The notes beneath the pieces were generated by a model. The model was not told the DNA's origin and did not search any database. It was given only the letters and a program-made list of their open reading frames with translations. From Phycisphaerales bacterium (lineage in GTDB: Bacteria; Planctomycetota; Phycisphaerae; Phycisphaerales; SM1A02), in the NCBI GenBank assembly GCA_007693845.1, contig RECV01000171.1, positions 1 through 48,992 on the forward strand: 48,992 bases of DNA, given 5' to 3'. The position numbers and the translations under genes are program-made. Position 1 is the stretch's first letter; each line of letters begins with the position of its first letter. Of this stretch, positions 21,082 to 25,364 are shown piece after piece.

Positions 21082-21648
21082 TCAGGTATCCTCGATCTCA
21101 GCGCACTTCTTGTCGCACATCTCATCAATCTTCTTCGTGTGCTCTTTGGTCAACTCATCCACTTCCTCGTGCGCGCCCTTGCCTTCATCTTCGGAAATGT
21201 GATTCGACTTGTCTTTCACGATCTGATCGATCTTCTTGTTCGCATCCCGCCGCTCATTGCGAATGGCGATCCGCGCTTCCTCCGCCATCTTCTTGACCTG
21301 ACCCATGAGCTGCTTTCGGCGTTCTTCCGACGGGGCGGGCACATTGATGCGAATCGTGCCGCCTTCGACCATCGGGTTCAGCCCGAGGTCCGCCGTCTCG
21401 ATCGCCTTCACGATTTCGCCCTTGACGCTCGGGTCGAACGGCTTGACCAGCAGTTGCGTCGGCTCCGGGATGCTGACGGACGCCAGCTCACGCAGGTCCG
21501 TATGGTTGCCGTAGTAATCGATCTTCACATAGTCGATCAGCGCGGTGGTCGCCCGGCCGGTGCGAATGCCCCGCATCTCCCGGTCGAAGTACTCGATCGT
21601 CCTCTTCATCTGCTCGCGGCAGTCTCGAATCACGGTATCCAGCGGCAT
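21082..21648 (-). CDS. frr: Ribosome recycling factor
   Basis: 188-aa C-terminal portion of the track ORF matches RRF end-to-end (…IRTGRATTALIDYVKIDYYG…LTEERRK…AIRNERRDANKK). Start MPLDTV (rc ATG 21646-21648). Confidence 0.93.
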   Translation of the reverse strand: MPLDTVIRDCREQMKRTIEYFDREMRGIRTGRATTALIDYVKIDYYGNHTDLRELASVSIPEPTQLLVKPFDPSVKGEIVKAIETADLGLNPMVEGGTIRINVPAPSEERRKQLMGQVKKMAEEARIAIRNERRDANKKIDQIVKDKSNHISEDEGKGAHEEVDELTKEHTKKIDEMCDKKCAEIEDT

Positions 21649-21764
21649 CGTGAGAATCTCCCAAACAGTGCGGTCACAAGAAACAGGCCGCGCATGATAC
21701 ACGCTGAACCCGCCCCGCGGGGCTGTTTCGCCCGCCGAACCGCCCCCGGGCTCGGCACCGGTGC

Positions 21765-22736
21765 TCAGCCCTCCGTCAACTCCGGCCGCGGCTGCGGGTG
21801 ATTCCAGCGTTGCCAGAGACGGACCAAGTCCGGGTCGGCATCGTCGGTGAAGGAGAGGGTCAGGTGACCGGCTTCTCCGATCATCGTCACGATCAACGGG
21901 CCGGAGGTTTCCGTGCACTTGACGAGCATGACCGCGTCGTCCACGGTCCAGCGGCGCTGCTTCCGGTCCGTGACGGTTCCGAGGCCGACGACGGTTTCGC
22001 GGTGATCCATGCGGAACAGGCGCGTGGTATCGCGCACTTCGGGCAGTTGCAGCGCGATGATTGCCGCAAGGACTAGCGCCAGCCACCACGTGCCGAGCCA
22101 GAGCAGGTACACCGCAACCACGATGACAATCCCAATCGCGATCTTGAGGCGCGCTCGCGGCTTGCTGCCGCTTTCAAGAATCCCTTCCGGTTCGAGCATG
22201 TGTTCCGGCAGCGGAATACGACGAAGCGAGGGGCGGGCCTGTTCGTCGATGATGGTTCGCGGCCGCGGGATCGAGCAAGAATCGAGCGCTTCGATGAAAC
22301 TCCGCCAGGTCCACAGGCGCGGCGGGCCGAGAAGGCGAAAACGCCGCTGGCGCTCCAGTTCAAACACGACCTCAACCGCCCGGGGGTCGCCGGTAAACGG
22401 GAGCGAAGGTGGCAGCGGACTCCAGCCGGCCGGGCGTGCGGTTGACCGTTCGTCGATGCGCTTGGTGAAGCGGGCCCAACAGAGCGGAGCAAGAATGACG
22501 AAGTGGAAGATGAGGATGCCCACCCCCCCGGAGATGGCTTGAATCAAGTCACCAGAGACAAAGTAAGTAGAAGCGAAAAATGCTGCGATGAAGACAACGA
22601 TGGCGACTGGACTTTGCAGGTCTTCCCCCACATGCAAAGGCAGCCGCCCGGCCGCAATGTACGGACACTCCGAGTTGGAAGCGCGGGTCTGATCCTCCAC
22701 GCCATGCACGATAAAGCACCAGGCCGGGACGACCAA
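21765..22736 (-). CDS. Hypothetical membrane protein with C-terminal PH-like region (start uncertain)
   Basis: Multiple TM helices (…IAIGIVIVVAVYLLWLGTWWLALVLAAIIAL…). No recognisable family. Confidence 0.4.
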   Translation of the reverse strand: MVVPAWCFIVHGVEDQTRASNSECPYIAAGRLPLHVGEDLQSPVAIVVFIAAFFASTYFVSGDLIQAISGGVGILIFHFVILAPLCWARFTKRIDERSTARPAGWSPLPPSLPFTGDPRAVEVVFELERQRRFRLLGPPRLWTWRSFIEALDSCSIPRPRTIIDEQARPSLRRIPLPEHMLEPEGILESGSKPRARLKIAIGIVIVVAVYLLWLGTWWLALVLAAIIALQLPEVRDTTRLFRMDHRETVVGLGTVTDRKQRRWTVDDAVMLVKCTETSGPLIVTMIGEAGHLTLSFTDDADPDLVRLWQRWNHPQPRPELTEG

Positions 22737-23046
22737 GTCGCAGTGTCAGTGTCCTCCTGCTCGCCGCCGCCGGACGCGATCATCAAGTGCACCGGCAATG
22801 ACCACGGCAGCCGGCTTTGCTCTACCCACCTCGCCATTGCATCCGGCCTCGGCTTCGCTATCTTGCTCTCACAATGATGCCCGGCTTCTACGAATCGCTC
22901 CTCCTGATTCTCATCTTCTTCGGCCCGCTCTTGGCCGCCGCGATGATCGTGCTTCTCGTGTTTCTTGTGCTGCGATTATTGAAGAAGGAGCGGAAGGGAT
23001 GAGTTACGCGGCCGTTCTGCCGCGAGCAGGGAAGAGGCTCGGAAAG

Positions 23047-23103
23047 TGTGCTACGCCGCGAGCGGCGTGCGACCGGCGCGCATCTCGCCGCTTGCGGCGT
23101 AGC
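23047..23103. repeat. REP-like imperfect palindrome, left flank of the RAYT gene
   Basis: GCTACGCCGCGAGCGGCG (23050-23067), 18-nt loop, CGCCGCTTGCGGCGTAGC (23086-23103). 17/18 complementary. Confidence 0.55.
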
Positions 23104-23132
23104 GCGGGTTGAATCTACCATTGACCGCCGTC

Positions 23133-23783
23133 ATGGCACGGCCCATCGTCATCGCGCACCACCTGATCTGGACGGTGTACGGCTGGTGGCTGCCCAACGA
23201 TCCGCGCGGCAGCACATCACGAACGGTCGCGTCAGATCGACTCGCAGCGCTGGGTGAATTGCACTTCGGACGGAAGAAAATCCAGCCGCAATCGCGCGAT
23301 GTGCGCGCGTTTTATGAACGGGCCGCGAAGGAACTCAAGCATCCGCTCCTGGAGATTCGCGATGACGCGGTTGATCTTGTCGCGGATTCATTTGCCGAAG
23401 TGATTGCGGAGCAGAAGTACACGTGTTATGCGTGCGCGATCATGCCGGATCATGTTCACATTCTGATTCGCAAACATAAGCATCGCGCGGAAGAGATGAT
23501 TGATCTCTTGCAGAACGCTTCGCGCTGGGCGCTGATCGAGGCGGGTCTGCGGCCGTCGGATCATCCGGTGTGGACGGGCGGTGGGGGATGGACGGTTTTT
23601 CTTGATCATCCCGATGAGGTTGAGCGGACGATTCCGTACATTGAGCAGAATCCGTTGAAGATCGGTTTACCGCGGCAGGTGTGGCCGTTCGTGGCGGTGT
23701 ACGACCGGTGGCCGTTGCATGAGGGGCATAGTGAGAATTCGCCGTATGTGAAGCGGTTGCGCGCGGCGGGGCGGTATCCGTGA
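23133..23783 (+). CDS. REP-associated tyrosine transposase (IS200/IS605 TnpA-like, Y1 HuH)
   Basis: HHLIWTVYGWW…PDHVHILI (HuH) …conserved Y. Flanked on both sides by copies of GTGCTACGCCGCGAGCGGCG palindromic elements. Confidence 0.8.
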   Translation: MARPIVIAHHLIWTVYGWWLPNDPRGSTSRTVASDRLAALGELHFGRKKIQPQSRDVRAFYERAAKELKHPLLEIRDDAVDLVADSFAEVIAEQKYTCYACAIMPDHVHILIRKHKHRAEEMIDLLQNASRWALIEAGLRPSDHPVWTGGGGWTVFLDHPDEVERTIPYIEQNPLKIGLPRQVWPFVAVYDRWPLHEGHSENSPYVKRLRAAGRYP

Positions 23784-23791
23784 GATCGTGC

Positions 23792-23829
23792 GCGTGCTAC
23801 GCCGCGAGCGGCGGCCGCTTGCGGCTTAG
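23792..23829. repeat. REP-like palindrome, right flank of the RAYT gene
   Basis: GCTACGCCGCGAGCGGCG|GCCGCTTGCGGCTTAGC, near-perfect inverted repeat centred at ~23812. Confidence 0.5.
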
Positions 23830-23902
23830 CGCACGTTAGTTCCAGATTCCCTCAGTTCGTCACCAACGTTCCCCCGCCGGACAGGGCGAGGGGCAGCATT
23901 AC

Positions 23903-24130
23903 TCACGCCGCATCAAGGGCGGCGTAGACCTTACCTTGCTGCTTGAGCCATTCCACGTCGCCGCGATCGGCGCGCTGTTCAATCTCGCGCAGGAGCTCGA
24001 CCGTCTCCGGCTCGTAGCATGGCTCAGACGGATCGGCATCAGGAATCACAGCATCGACTTCCACGACGACAACATACTTGTCCGTGCGGACCATGCGCGT
24101 GCGTCGAACTCGTTTGCCGGGAATACTCAT
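23903..24130 (-). CDS. Small hypothetical protein immediately downstream of the DUF4258-like gene (possible antitoxin partner)
   Basis: 75-aa ORF separated by 5 nt from the upstream gene on the same strand. Confidence 0.4.
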   Translation of the reverse strand: MSIPGKRVRRTRMVRTDKYVVVVEVDAVIPDADPSEPCYEPETVELLREIEQRADRGDVEWLKQQGKVYAALDAA

Positions 24131-24135
24131 GATCG

Positions 24136-24420
24136 CTACTCGTCCAAGAAGTGTACGGTTACCAGCTTCGCATAGTCAATCTCACGCATGTACGACCACA
24201 CGACAAGGACTTCGGTTCCATCGGCCAGTAGCTGCGTGACCTCAACGGACGGATTCGGCTGCGTGCGCGGGCGTTCACGCTGAAGGGCGGCGTTTTGAAT
24301 GCCGTCAACGATCTGCCATTCGAGGATTCGTCGCTCGTCCAGGCGCTCCACCGCATGATGGCCGACGACATAGCGGTTGGCCTCCACGAGTTGCTTGATC
24401 TTCTGAAAGAGTTGGCCCAC
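24136..24420 (-). CDS. DUF4258-family (toxin-like) protein
   Basis: YVVGHHAVERLDERRI matches the characteristic HAxERMxERGI signature of the DUF4258 family. 94 aa. Confidence 0.55.
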   Translation of the reverse strand: MGQLFQKIKQLVEANRYVVGHHAVERLDERRILEWQIVDGIQNAALQRERPRTQPNPSVEVTQLLADGTEVLVVWSYMREIDYAKLVTVHFLDE

Positions 24421-24430
24421 GCGTAGCCCC

Positions 24431-25189
24431 TCAATTGGTCACCAACGTGCCCACACGCTCGCCCGTCACGACCCTGCGGATGTTGCCCTTCTTCTTGAAA
24501 TCGAACACGATCACCGGCAGGTTGCGTTCCATGCACATTGACAGGGCGGTCAGGTCCATCACGCCGAGCTGTTTTTCGATCGCTACGGCGAAGGTGAGCT
24601 GATCGTACCGTGTCGCGCTGGCATCCTTCCGCGGGTCGGCGGAATAGACGCCATCGACCTTGGTCGCTTTGAGGACGATGTCCGCGTTGAGCTCCGCCCC
24701 GCGCAGTGCAGCGCAGGTGTCGGTCGTGAAGAACGGGTTGCCGGTGCCGGCCGCGAGAATGAGCACGCGGCCTTTCTCAAAATGTCGCAGGGCGCGGGCG
24801 CGGATGAAAGGTTCAGCCACGGCGGGAATGTCGATCGCGCTCATGAGGCGGGCGGGCTGGCCGAGATTCTCGATCGCTTCGCGCAGGGCGACGCCGTTGA
24901 TGACGGTGCCGAGCATGCCCATGTAATCGGCGTTGGATTGCGCGATGGTGCCGGTCTCCGCGAGCTGGCCGCCGCGAATGATGTTGCCCCCGCCGACGAC
25001 GATGGCGATCTGCGGGCGGCTGGACGCGTCGGGATTATCCGCGTCGCCGCTTCGCACGGCATCGACGATTTCCTGCGCGATGAGGCCGAGCTCATCGGGA
25101 TCGATACCGAATTCGCCGGGCTTGCTGAAGCTTTCGCCGCTGATTTTGAGAATGATTCGACGGTACTGCTGGTGTGGGGCGTCCGGCAT
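24431..25189 (-). CDS. pyrH: UMP kinase
   Basis: RIILKISGESF…IVVGGGNIIRG…GTGNPFFTTDT motifs. Start MPDAPHQQ (rc ATG 25187-25189). Confidence 0.93.
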   Translation of the reverse strand: MPDAPHQQYRRIILKISGESFSKPGEFGIDPDELGLIAQEIVDAVRSGDADNPDASSRPQIAIVVGGGNIIRGGQLAETGTIAQSNADYMGMLGTVINGVALREAIENLGQPARLMSAIDIPAVAEPFIRARALRHFEKGRVLILAAGTGNPFFTTDTCAALRGAELNADIVLKATKVDGVYSADPRKDASATRYDQLTFAVAIEKQLGVMDLTALSMCMERNLPVIVFDFKKKGNIRRVVTGERVGTLVTN

Positions 25190-25364
25190 GATTGAGCGAT
25201 TCCTCCGATGACTGGCGTCATTGGACTGTCCGTTGCGCGATCGGTCAAGGGCGTTCGCACGCAAATCGGTGGTTCATGGTCCGGTCCCGCCCGAACGATC
25301 ATGCTCCCGGCGTATACTGCCAGCGCGAGTGCGGAACTTCCCAGCCGCGGAGACGTATCAGTTC

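What the first reader, a model, noticed from the sequence alone, without database searches (positions are those of the whole stretch)
23047..23829. REP-associated tyrosine transposase flanked by matching palindromes
Seen in sequence: the Y1/HuH transposase ORF (HVHIL motif) is bracketed by two copies of GTGCTACGCCGCGAGCGGCG (23047 and 23792). Each forms an imperfect palindrome with a downstream CGCCGCTTGCGGCGTAGC-type arm, one with an 18-nt loop and one with adjacent arms. Established: RAYTs (domesticated IS200/IS605 TnpA relatives) are characteristically flanked by the REP hairpins they act on. Further copies of this palindrome would be expected elsewhere as REP/BIME elements. Only one such pair occurs in this 49-kb window.
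Basis: partly seen in the sequence, partly recalled or inferred. Interest (0 to 1): 0.5.

Follow-up and report, generated by a model that had tools for sequence, protein, structure and literature searches.

The report
REP-associated transposase gene with flanking REPs
This is a single-copy, domesticated IS200-like (HUH/tyrosine) transposase gene bracketed by two hairpin-forming pairs of a 17-nt repeat that is also scattered through the intergenic DNA of many Planctomycetota genomes: an ordinary, if divergent, example of the known RAYT/REP ("REPtron") arrangement.

Summary
The exact 20-mer GTGCTACGCCGCGAGCGGCG lies at 23048-23067 and 23794-23813. Each copy pairs with an inverted partner (23086-23103, 23813-23830). 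The window holds four copies of the unit GCTAMGCCGCRAGCGGC against 0.06-0.33 expected by chance.

The enclosed ORF (23133-23783, 216 aa) has an IS200/RAYT fold. Its HuH motif (H107-V-H109) and its Tyr169, in a Y---NP motif, are invariant across the family. The best solved-structure match is E. coli TnpA_REP.

The same unit, or a co-varying variant, flanks orthologues (50-85% identity) on both sides, in several different gene neighbourhoods. A capped scan of reference genomes returned 120 stretches:
- 103 came from Planctomycetota.
- Single MAGs contributed up to 6 contigs.
- Only 1 stretch lay next to the gene.
- Most units formed inverted doublets.
- Units were strongly enriched outside coding sequence.

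Three features are atypical. The protein falls below the curated RAYT/Y1_Tnp thresholds. It carries a family-specific insertion of about 60 aa with an invariant WLPNDPRGS motif. The REP is a short GC mini-hairpin with a GCTA foot rather than a canonical 5' GTAG hairpin.

No further REP copy lies in this 49-kb window, so abundance in the source genome is untested.

Verdict: new member of a known kind, of modest interest.

The parts
23048..23067 (+). REP unit 1 ('+' orientation; core GCTACGCCGCGAGCGGC at 23050-23066). It is the outer arm of the upstream doublet.
   Evidence: Exact 20-nt repeat with 23794-23813 (D3). Zero mismatches to the family unit. Alone it folds as a 4-nt GCTA foot plus a 5-bp stem with a tetraloop.
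23086..23103 (-). REP unit 2 ('-' orientation; top strand reads CGCCGCTTGCGGCGTAGC). It is the gene-proximal arm of the upstream doublet.
   Evidence: 94% complementary to unit 1, with an 18-nt spacer (I3). One mismatch to the 18-mer.
23048..23105 (.). Upstream REPIN-like doublet: a hairpin of two inverted REP units.
   Evidence: Single-stranded DNA fold of -30.3 kcal/mol on the top strand (z = -4.4) and -26.9 kcal/mol on the bottom strand (z = -3.6). The same doublet lies upstream of orthologues L002, L004, L006, L143 and L166.
23133..23783 (+). RAYT-like Y1 HUH transposase gene, 216 aa. HuH = H107-V-H109 (nt 23451-23459). Catalytic Tyr169 (nt 23637-23639) lies in YIEQNP.
   Evidence: NCBIfam REP_Tyr_transpos 46.6 bits (cut-off 80) and Pfam Y1_Tnp 21.4 bits (cut-off 23). 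Family profile against PDB: 4ER8 is best at E = 3.5e-8, with the motifs aligned. Fold matches are IS200/IS605 TnpA and 4ER8. H107 and Y169 are invariant and H109 nearly so (90% or more of sequences).
23160..23213 (+). Codons for residues 10-27 (HLIWTVYGWWLPNDPRGS). This motif is invariant across the family and opens an insertion of about 60 aa between strand beta1 and helix alphaA.
   Evidence: H10, W19, N22 and G26 are invariant; Y16, G17, L20, P21, D23, R25 and S27 are conserved in at least 90% of 40 sequences that go down to 30% identity. HMM and PDB alignments to known RAYT/TnpA begin only at about residue 67-76. The model has lower confidence over residues 21-50.
23794..23813 (+). REP unit 3 ('+' orientation). 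It is the gene-proximal arm of the downstream doublet and starts 10 nt after the stop codon.
   Evidence: Exact copy of 23048-23067 (D3).
23813..23830 (-). REP unit 4 ('-' orientation; top strand reads GCCGCTTGCGGCTTAGC). It is the outer arm of the downstream doublet and abuts unit 3.
   Evidence: 3 mismatches to the 18-mer. Zero mismatches to the degenerate family unit GCTAMGCCGCRAGCGGC. Hairpin of -22.2 kcal/mol.

Best explanation
The locus is a 'REPtron'. A single-copy, domesticated IS200-type HUH/tyrosine (Y1) endonuclease gene, a RAYT/TnpA_REP relative, sits between two inverted doublets of its cognate repeat.

Shown here:
- The protein has the IS200/RAYT fold with an intact HuH and Tyr.
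- The 17-nt unit GCTAMGCCGCRAGCGGC brackets the gene on both sides, here and in orthologues placed in other gene neighbourhoods.
- The unit varies with protein divergence.
- In related Planctomycetota genomes the same unit is dispersed, mostly as hairpin-forming inverted doublets in non-coding DNA, without the gene nearby.

Inferred from the biochemistry established for E. coli TnpA_REP and for IS608/ISDra2 TnpA:
- The enzyme binds the REP hairpin in single-stranded DNA, for example on the lagging-strand template.
- It uses the HuH-bound metal and Tyr169 to cleave next to the hairpin, forming a 5'-phosphotyrosine intermediate, and then rejoins the strands.
- In this way it excises or copies REP doublets (REPINs) in trans, while the gene itself is inherited as one copy.

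The doublets may also act as hairpin terminators or mRNA stabilisers for the flanking convergent genes.
For: Repeats are real and non-random.

Protein:
- H107 and Y169 are invariant and H109 nearly invariant (90% or more of sequences), with a Y---NP motif, in 40 relatives down to 30% identity.
- The family profile hits E. coli TnpA_REP (4ER8) best, E = 3.5e-8, with HuH, W and YxxxNP aligned.
- The AlphaFold2 model has pLDDT 86.2. Its top 30 Foldseek PDB hits are all IS200/IS605 TnpA or 4ER8.
- 40 of 40 members match NCBIfam REP_Tyr_transpos and 17 of 40 match IS200.
- JGI names many homologues 'REP element-mobilizing transposase RayT'.

Flank conservation:
- Orthologues in several different neighbourhoods carry the same unit on both sides. 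The neighbourhoods are EF-G/Exo_endo_phos, Oxidored_q6/HNH, a 1457-aa protein/PhoPQ_related, and DDE transposase/DUF4405.
- In 32 loci the longest exact inverted match between the two flanks has a median of 17 nt, against 7 nt in shuffles (maximum 11).
- Distant orthologues (50-60% identity) carry variant units, for example GCGAAACCGCAAGCGGT and GCGAAGCCGGCAAGCGGC.

Dispersal:
- The capped genome scan gave 120 stretches, 103 from Planctomycetota, with up to 6 contigs per MAG. All 15 non-Planctomycetota hits are singletons.
- Only 1 of 120 stretches lies beside the gene.
- 51 of 59 neighbouring unit pairs are inverted.
- 31.6% of units lie in predicted coding sequence, against 78.5% of bases (p = 7e-40).
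- In loci with gene calls, every extra copy checked against them lies in an intergenic gap (L006, L165, L166).

The gene is single-copy in the window.
Against: No REP copy other than the four flanking units lies in the 49-kb window. Whether this particular genome holds a REP population is therefore unknown; orthologue loci L002 and L004 also show none in 20 kb.

The protein is below the curated thresholds of both the NCBIfam RAYT model (46.6 against 80 bits) and Pfam Y1_Tnp (21.4 against 23 bits).

The REP lacks the canonical arrangement of a 5' GT[AG]G foot followed by a long hairpin. GTAG/TTAG lies 3' of the conserved mini-hairpin.

The gene sits in different neighbourhoods among orthologues of about 80% identity (window; L006/L165; P0010). 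This could also mean that the whole unit sometimes moves.

No activity has been shown for any member of this subfamily.
Confidence: 0.8

Rival explanations
1. An autonomous IS200/IS605-type insertion sequence. The flanking palindromes would be its own left-end and right-end subterminal hairpins, and the whole 0.8-kb unit would transpose.
For: The fold and chemistry are those of IS200/IS605 TnpA. The gene lies between inverted units, with the inner pair arranged '- gene +'. It occupies different neighbourhoods in orthologues of about 80% identity. In L166 it lies beside DDE transposases.
Against: 119 of 120 genomic stretches that carry the unit lack the gene. There is no second copy or fragment in the window. 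There is no tnpB neighbour. The Y---NP motif is the class-2 (RAYT) signature, not the Y---Q of IS200 (PMC6006769, Table 1). 90%-identity clusters are seen on only 1-4 contigs in nearly all cases. Synteny is kept between L006 and L165 and between L129, L130 and L136. All members score higher on the RAYT model than on the IS200 model.
Confidence: 0.06
2. A relic or re-purposed HUH protein. The gene and its four flanking units are conserved, but in this genome the enzyme no longer spreads REPs. Instead it serves a host function at a few hairpin sites, for example single-stranded DNA processing or regulation. The flanking hairpins would act mainly as terminators or autoregulatory sites.
For: There are no extra REP copies in 49 kb here, nor in 20 kb of L002 and L004. 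Protein conservation is very high (65-85% identity across families), with an invariant extra N-terminal motif of unknown role. Many orthologues carry an exact REP unit inside their own coding sequence. The downstream doublet sits between convergent genes, where a terminator would be expected.
Against: Related genomes do carry dispersed doublets in intergenic DNA. The catalytic residues are fully conserved. A density of one site per 5-50 kb, as seen in relatives, is compatible with finding none in 49 kb.
Confidence: 0.12
3. Coincidental GC-rich palindromes, such as terminators, that are unrelated to the transposase-like gene.
For: The genome is GC-rich, where short GC palindromes are common. 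The hairpins lie at gene ends.
Against: The unit occurs four times against 0.06 expected. It is conserved on both sides of orthologues in unrelated neighbourhoods. Rfam gives no real match.
Confidence: 0.02

Closest known systems
E. coli TnpA_REP / RAYT (YafM; PDB 4ER8). Subclass 2.2 of Quentin et al. 2018 (PMC6006769), Group 2 of Bertels et al. 2017 (PMC5581495).
   Same: It is the best solved-structure match of the family profile, with HuH, the conserved W and the YxxxNP tyrosine helix aligned. Both have the IS200-like fold. In both, the gene is flanked by inverted REP pairs in a REPtron arrangement, and the same REP is dispersed in intergenic DNA.
   Different: Only about 12% identity in the structural alignment. 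The NCBIfam RAYT model scores 46.6 bits against a cut-off of 80. An extra ~60 aa lies between beta1 and alphaA, with an invariant WLPNDPRGS motif. The conserved position reads W-T/K rather than W-E. The REP is a 17-nt unit with a 4-5-bp GC stem and a GCTA foot, rather than a 5' GTAG followed by a long bulged hairpin.
Pseudomonas REPIN-RAYT systems (Bertels & Rainey 2011, PMC3116915). Subclass 2.5 / Group 3.
   Same: Short REP units are arranged as inverted doublets that form hairpins (REPINs). Doublets flank a single-copy RAYT and are dispersed in extragenic space.
   Different: The protein subfamily and the REP sequence differ. Spacers here are short (0-44 nt). The exact unit is shared across orders, and even across two classes, of Planctomycetota, rather than being specific to a species or genus.
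Rhodopirellula baltica REP families GTAG-20 and GTAG-21 with their tyrosine transposases (Di Nocera et al. 2013, PMC3733652).
   Same: REP/RAYT systems have already been reported in a planctomycete, so the kind is known in this phylum.
   Different: Those are GTAG-tagged families. The text and supplements held for that paper do not contain the GCCGCAAGCGGC core. The proteins were not compared directly.
Class 3 TnpA_Y1 of Quentin et al. 2018 (Planctomycetes, Acidobacteria, Proteobacteria).
   Same: It is found mainly in Planctomycetes. [quoted passage not shown] It shares the HVH and W[TA] motifs.
   Different: Class 3 is defined by a Y----Q motif and a CnGA foot. This family has Y---NP (YIEQNP; consensus YVExNP) and a GCTA foot.
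IS200/IS605 TnpA (IS608, ISDra2; PDB 2XMA, 2VJU and others).
   Same: The same HUH/Y1 fold, with the top Foldseek hits. It recognises DNA hairpins at the element ends.
   Different: Those are autonomous, multi-copy elements with a Y---Q motif, often with tnpB. Their ends are not dispersed without the gene.

Membership tests
RAYT / TnpA_REP (class 2 TnpA_Y1) | HuH motif and catalytic Tyr in a Y---NP context | tested here: met
   H107-V-H109 and Y169-IEQ-NP. H107 and Y169 are invariant; H109, N173 and P174 are conserved in at least 90% of 40 relatives. The motifs align to the HuH and YIYINP of 4ER8.
RAYT / TnpA_REP (class 2 TnpA_Y1) | IS200-like Y1 transposase fold | tested here: met
   AlphaFold2 model with pLDDT 86.2. 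The top 30 Foldseek PDB hits are ISDra2, IS608 and Sulfolobus TnpA plus 4ER8, at probability 1.00.
RAYT / TnpA_REP (class 2 TnpA_Y1) | Gene flanked on both sides by REP units in inverted orientation (REPtron) | tested here: met
   Four units at 23050(+), 23086(-), 23796(+) and 23813(-). The same holds in orthologues: across 32 loci the median exact inverted flank match is 17 nt, against 7 nt in shuffles.
RAYT / TnpA_REP (class 2 TnpA_Y1) | The flanking repeat is abundant elsewhere in the same genome, mainly extragenic | tested here: inconclusive
   Met in related genomes. There are up to 6 contigs per MAG in a capped scan, 119 of 120 stretches lack the gene, and 31.6% of units lie in coding sequence against 78.5% of bases. 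For the window's own genome only 49 kb is available, and it holds no extra copy.
RAYT / TnpA_REP (class 2 TnpA_Y1) | Single or low copy number, mostly vertical inheritance | tested here: inconclusive
   One copy in the window. 90%-identity clusters are seen on 1-4 contigs in nearly all cases. Synteny is kept in L006/L165 and in L129/L130/L136 but differs between the window, L006 and P0010. No complete genome could be counted.
RAYT / TnpA_REP (class 2 TnpA_Y1) | Passes the curated HMM thresholds (NCBIfam NF047646 REP_Tyr_transpos; Pfam PF01797 Y1_Tnp) | tested here: not met
   46.6 bits against a cut-off of 80, and 21.4 bits against 23. All 40 relatives hit NF047646 at E <= 0.001 (best 7.9e-19; window protein 46.6 bits against the cut-off of 80), and 22 of 40 hit PF01797. 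This points to a divergent subfamily, not an equivalog.
RAYT / TnpA_REP (class 2 TnpA_Y1) | Canonical REP: a 5' GT[AG]G foot directly before the hairpin | tested here: not met
   The conserved mini-hairpin has a 5' GCTA (CTAM) foot. GTAG/TTAG lies on the opposite strand reading, 3' of the mini-hairpin. In '-+' doublets it sits at the foot of the variable inner stem, resembling a 'double foot'. Quentin et al. also describe atypical REPs for subclass 2.6 and class 3.
RAYT / TnpA_REP (class 2 TnpA_Y1) | Sequence-specific binding and cleavage of single-stranded REP DNA | not testable with these tools
   This needs biochemistry.
IS200/IS605 insertion sequence (subclass 1.1) | Y---Q tyrosine motif; short protein of about 150 aa made of the core only | tested here: not met
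   The motif is YIEQNP (Y---NP). The protein is 216 aa with an N-terminal insertion.
IS200/IS605 insertion sequence (subclass 1.1) | Multiple near-identical copies of gene plus ends; ends not found without the gene; frequent tnpB partner | tested here: not met
   One copy in the window. The neighbours are a 61-aa ORF and a 75-aa ORF, with no tnpB. The repeat is found without the gene in 119 of 120 stretches.
Class 3 TnpA_Y1 (Quentin 2018) | Y----Q motif and a CnGA foot on the flanking structures | tested here: not met
   Y---NP motif and a GCTA foot. The definition is from PMC6006769.

The most novel reading that the evidence does not exclude
This may be a deeply conserved RAYT/REPIN lineage that spans the phylum Planctomycetota. 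The 17-nt REP unit has stayed essentially frozen across orders and across both classes, Planctomycetia and Phycisphaerae. The enzyme has gained an invariant N-terminal WLPNDPRGS module. Many members carry an exact REP unit inside their own coding sequence, encoded as SRLRLS or LSRKRL. Together these features would point to a host-level or self-regulatory role, with the enzyme acting on its own gene or mRNA hairpin, rather than mere selfish REP spread.
Probability: 0.2. Interest if true: 0.55.

Novelty: new member of a known kind. Interest (0 to 1): 0.3.

Why it matters
RAYT/REPIN systems are the best-documented case of a domesticated transposase maintaining a population of non-autonomous repeats by vertical inheritance. 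Almost all detailed work on them is in Proteobacteria. This locus extends the pattern to a large, well-conserved Planctomycetota subfamily: more than 3000 homologues were found, and about 1000 clusters at 50% identity. Its cognate REP is unusually simple and unusually conserved. That makes it a convenient system for asking how a Y1 HUH enzyme recognises a minimal hairpin, and why REP sequences can stay fixed over long times. For annotating this window, the practical result is simple. The ORF should be called a RAYT-family (TnpA_REP-like) protein, and the two flanking palindromes should be called REP doublets.

Tried and rejected
(1) A single-sequence PDB search gave only marginal hits (E = 0.045-0.2). 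A 40-member profile was needed to reach 4ER8.

(2) A stop-to-stop ORF test for intergenic location discriminated poorly in these GC-rich genomes (median covering ORF 948 nt against 1356 nt). I replaced it with a GC3-based coding map, checked against the gene calls of L006.

(3) The fifth near-match, at window 4177-4194, was examined and rejected. It lies inside a 453-aa ORF, lacks the palindromic core and has no partner.

(4) Rfam gave only a far sub-threshold miRNA-hairpin match (24 bits against 87), so no known RNA family is present.

(5) Literature searches for the core sequence found only unrelated primers. The Planctomycetes Class 3 family of Quentin 2018 was considered and rejected on its Y motif and its foot.

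(6) At first the gene-flanking doublets ('+-') seemed to differ from the dispersed ones ('-+', 46 against 5), which could have meant a distinct element. This was rejected. Polarity follows the clade: L129, L130, L132 and L136 have '-+' flanks, and L166, from the window's clade, has a dispersed '+-' doublet.

The window's source genome is represented elsewhere only by a 2.7-kb contig.

(8) Chance expectation for the degenerate 17-mer in 596 Gb is roughly 280 hits under equal base frequencies (my arithmetic). Singleton hits outside Planctomycetota were therefore treated as noise.
Full report
**1. What is in the sequence**

Reading 22700-24200 and listing ORFs shows a 216-aa ORF at 23133-23783 on the + strand. 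An alternative TTG start lies at 23109, but orthologues begin MARPIVIAHH, which supports the ATG. The ORF contains PDHVHIL.

The repeat finder places the exact 20-mer GTGCTACGCCGCGAGCGGCG at 23048-23067 and 23794-23813. The upstream copy has an inverted partner at 23086-23103 (94% complementary, 18-nt spacer). The downstream copy abuts its partner at 23813-23830.

The repeats are more than chance would give:
- The 18-mer with up to 3 mismatches gives 5 hits against 0.33 expected.
- The 12-nt palindromic core GCCGCRAGCGGC gives 4 hits against 0.06 expected, and none of 100 shuffles reaches 4.
- The fifth hit, at 4177, is a chance near-match inside a long ORF.
- No other copy and no comparable palindrome family lies in the 49 kb.

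As single-stranded DNA the two doublets fold at -30.3 and -22.2 kcal/mol (z = -4.4 and -3.1). A single unit folds as a 4-nt GCTA foot plus a 5-bp GC stem with a tetraloop.

**2. The protein**

The ORF scores below the curated cut-offs on Pfam Y1_Tnp (21.4 against 23 bits) and on NCBIfam REP_Tyr_transpos (46.6 against 80 bits). It scores only 18 bits on the IS200 model.

The family is large:
- More than 3000 homologues, the top 120 at 64-85% identity. Where a source names them they are Gemmataceae, Isosphaera or Planctomycetota, and JGI often labels them 'REP element-mobilizing transposase RayT'.
- 1059 clusters at 50% identity with E <= 0.001.

In an alignment of 40 members reaching down to 30% identity, the invariant residues are H10, W19, N22, G26, H107 and Y169. 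H109, W147, N173 and P174 are nearly invariant. This gives an intact HuH motif and a tyrosine in the Y---NP context, which Quentin et al. 2018 give as the signature of class 2 (TnpA_REP) proteins.

Further support for a RAYT-type protein:
- A profile of this alignment hits E. coli TnpA_REP (4ER8) best among all PDB sequences (E = 3.5e-8). HuH, the conserved W and the YxxxNP helix are aligned. ISDra2, Sulfolobus and other IS200-family TnpA follow.
- The AlphaFold2 model (pLDDT 86.2) finds only IS200/IS605 TnpA structures and 4ER8 among its top 30 PDB matches.
- All 40 members match the NCBIfam RAYT model, and only 17 match the IS200 model.

One feature is specific to the family. Known models align only from about residue 67-76 onward. 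Between strand beta1 (residues 8-15) and helix alphaA lies an insertion of about 60 residues that opens with the invariant motif YGxWLPNDPRGS.

**3. Are the palindromes tied to the gene?**

Orthologues were fetched from long contigs and from a metagenome scan. They sit in several different neighbourhoods:
- frr/pyrH in the window;
- EF-G/Exo_endo_phos in L006 and L165;
- Oxidored_q6/HNH in L004;
- a 1457-aa protein/PhoPQ_related in L002;
- urocanase for P0010;
- DDE transposase/DUF4405 in L166.

Nearly all carry the unit GCTAMGCCGCRAGCGGC on both sides. Across 32 loci with both flanks available, the longest exact inverted match between the upstream and downstream flanks has a median of 17 nt. 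Shuffles give a median of 7 nt and a maximum of 11 nt, and 22 of the 32 loci reach at least 12 nt.

Orthologues at 50-60% identity carry variant units in the same '- gene +' arrangement, for example GCGAAACCGCAAGCGGT, GCGAAGCCGGCAAGCGGC and GCGAAACGGTAAACGA. Repeat and protein therefore change together. The window uses the GCTAC variant in three of its four units, as L006, L165, L129 and L130 do.

**4. Is the unit dispersed?**

- 103 stretches are from Planctomycetota. These include Gemmatales, Isosphaeraceae, Pirellulales, Planctomycetaceae, and the class Phycisphaerae with Tepidisphaerales.
- Two are from an unnamed MAG that holds several copies.
- 15 are singletons from other phyla. That fits the roughly 280 chance hits expected in 596 Gb (my arithmetic).
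- Single MAGs contribute up to 6 separate contigs.
- Only one stretch (L049) also encodes the protein.

With up to 2 mismatches allowed, 51 of 59 neighbouring unit pairs are inverted doublets, with spacers of 2-44 nt in the '-+' doublets printed. These form long hairpins of the REPIN type.

A GC3-based coding map was checked against the gene calls of L006. It classes 78.5% of bases as coding but only 31.6% of units (p = 7e-40). In loci that have gene calls, every extra copy I compared with them falls in an intergenic gap. This holds for L006 at 11775 and 12600, L165 at 8721, and L166 at 2212, 4181/4206, 7142 and 11566.

Doublet polarity follows the clade. The window's clade has '+-' doublets both beside the gene and dispersed, as at L166 4181/4206. 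Other clades have '-+' doublets in both places.

**5. Interpretation**

These are the features that define a RAYT/REP 'REPtron' (Nunvar 2010; Bertels & Rainey 2011; Ton-Hoang 2012; Quentin 2018, as summarised):
- a low-copy Y1 HUH gene;
- flanking inverted REP doublets;
- the same REP dispersed in extragenic space without the gene;
- co-variation of REP and protein.

The mechanism is inferred, not shown. By analogy with E. coli TnpA_REP and IS608/ISDra2 TnpA, the enzyme would recognise the REP hairpin and its foot in single-stranded DNA. It would cleave through Tyr169, with the HuH-bound metal, and rejoin the strands, mobilising doublets in trans.

The rival reading as an autonomous IS200-type element is unlikely:
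- the gene is single-copy in the window;
- it has no tnpB neighbour;
- it has the Y---NP motif;
- its 'ends' occur without the gene in 119 of 120 stretches.

A weaker rival cannot be excluded. In this particular genome the system may be a relic or may serve another host role, because the 49-kb window holds no further copy.

**6. Comparison with what is known**

The family is closest to class 2 TnpA_REP but is a divergent subfamily:
- it falls below the curated HMM thresholds;
- it has the extra N-terminal module;
- it has W-T/K where E. coli TnpA_REP has W-E and most REP-associated class 2 subclasses have W-Q;
- its REP has a GCTA foot and a mini-hairpin, rather than a 5' GT[AG]G foot and a long hairpin.

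It is not Quentin's Planctomycetes-rich Class 3, which is defined by a Y----Q motif and a CnGA foot.

REP/RAYT systems have already been reported in a planctomycete: Rhodopirellula baltica families GTAG-20 and GTAG-21 (Di Nocera 2013). I found no paper that mentions this core sequence, and no Rfam family matches.

**7. Verdict**

The locus is a new member, a divergent subfamily, of a known kind, and interest is modest (0.3).

Three points might interest a specialist:
- the exact conservation of the 17-nt unit across two classes of Planctomycetota;
- the invariant N-terminal motif;
- an exact REP unit embedded in the coding sequence of many orthologues at nt 388-404, encoding SRLRLS or LSRKRL. 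This site is degenerate in the window itself (10 of 17 positions).

Noticed in passing
Orthologues: L049 7745-7761, L133, L138 (0 mismatches); L002/L128, L142, L146 (1 mismatch); L143 and L145 ('+' orientation). Window equivalent: 23521-23537.: Many orthologues carry an exact or near-exact REP unit inside the RAYT coding sequence, about 390 nt from the start, in the helix after HuH. It causes no length change. It encodes SRLRLS ('-' orientation) or LSRKRL/LSRERL ('+' orientation), and the palindromic core sits at the same nucleotides in both. Codon choice therefore seems constrained at the DNA level. In the window the site is degenerate (SRWAL; 10 of 17 nt match). This recalls the in-frame REP insertions reported for subclass 2.4, but here nothing is inserted. 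The function is unknown; autoregulation or gene conversion are possibilities.
   Followed up: partly
window 23160-23213 (residues 10-27) and the insertion up to about residue 76: The invariant motif H-x5-YGxWLPNDPRGS opens an insertion of about 60 aa between beta1 and alphaA. Solved IS200/RAYT structures and the curated HMMs lack it. It is conserved down to 30% identity, so it is presumably functional. Its role is unknown.
   Followed up: partly
L008-L127 (genome scan); L049 (Phycisphaerales MAG): The exact 17-nt unit is shared by MAGs labelled Gemmatales, Isosphaeraceae, Pirellulales, Planctomycetaceae, Phycisphaeraceae and Tepidisphaerales. That is unusually broad conservation for a REP sequence, which is normally specific to a species or genus. 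The result depends on MAG taxonomy labels and on a scan that was capped.
   Followed up: partly
window and L002, L004, L006, L143, L166 ('+-'), against L129, L130, L132, L136 and most dispersed copies ('-+'): Two doublet polarities exist. In one the GCTA feet face outward; in the other they face inward, next to a variable inner stem (a 'double-foot' look). Polarity follows the RAYT clade and is the same for gene-flanking and dispersed copies within a clade.
   Followed up: partly
window 24136-24420 (-) and 23903-24130 (-): A 94-aa DUF4258 protein (Pfam, 31.7 bits) is followed 5 nt downstream by a 75-aa ORF with no Pfam match. This looks like a small toxin-antitoxin-type pair, placed between pyrH and the RAYT locus and convergent with the RAYT gene.
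   Followed up: no
window 21082-25264: frr (RRF domain) and pyrH (AA_kinase), which are adjacent in many bacteria, are separated here by about 2.8 kb. That stretch holds a 323-aa ORF with no Pfam match (21765-22736, -), a small hydrophobic ORF (22817-23002, +; called as 42 aa in L001), the REPtron and the DUF4258 pair.
   Followed up: no
window 21706-21729 and 21748-21771: Two short GC-rich palindromes (16-17 nt, 88% complementary) lie just upstream of the frr coding region, near the end of the 323-aa ORF. They are unrelated in sequence to the REP unit and may be terminators.
   Followed up: no
L166 6235-8667: In one orthologous locus the RAYT gene lies directly downstream of two DDE_Tnp_1 transposase genes, in a region that looks rich in mobile elements.
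   Followed up: no
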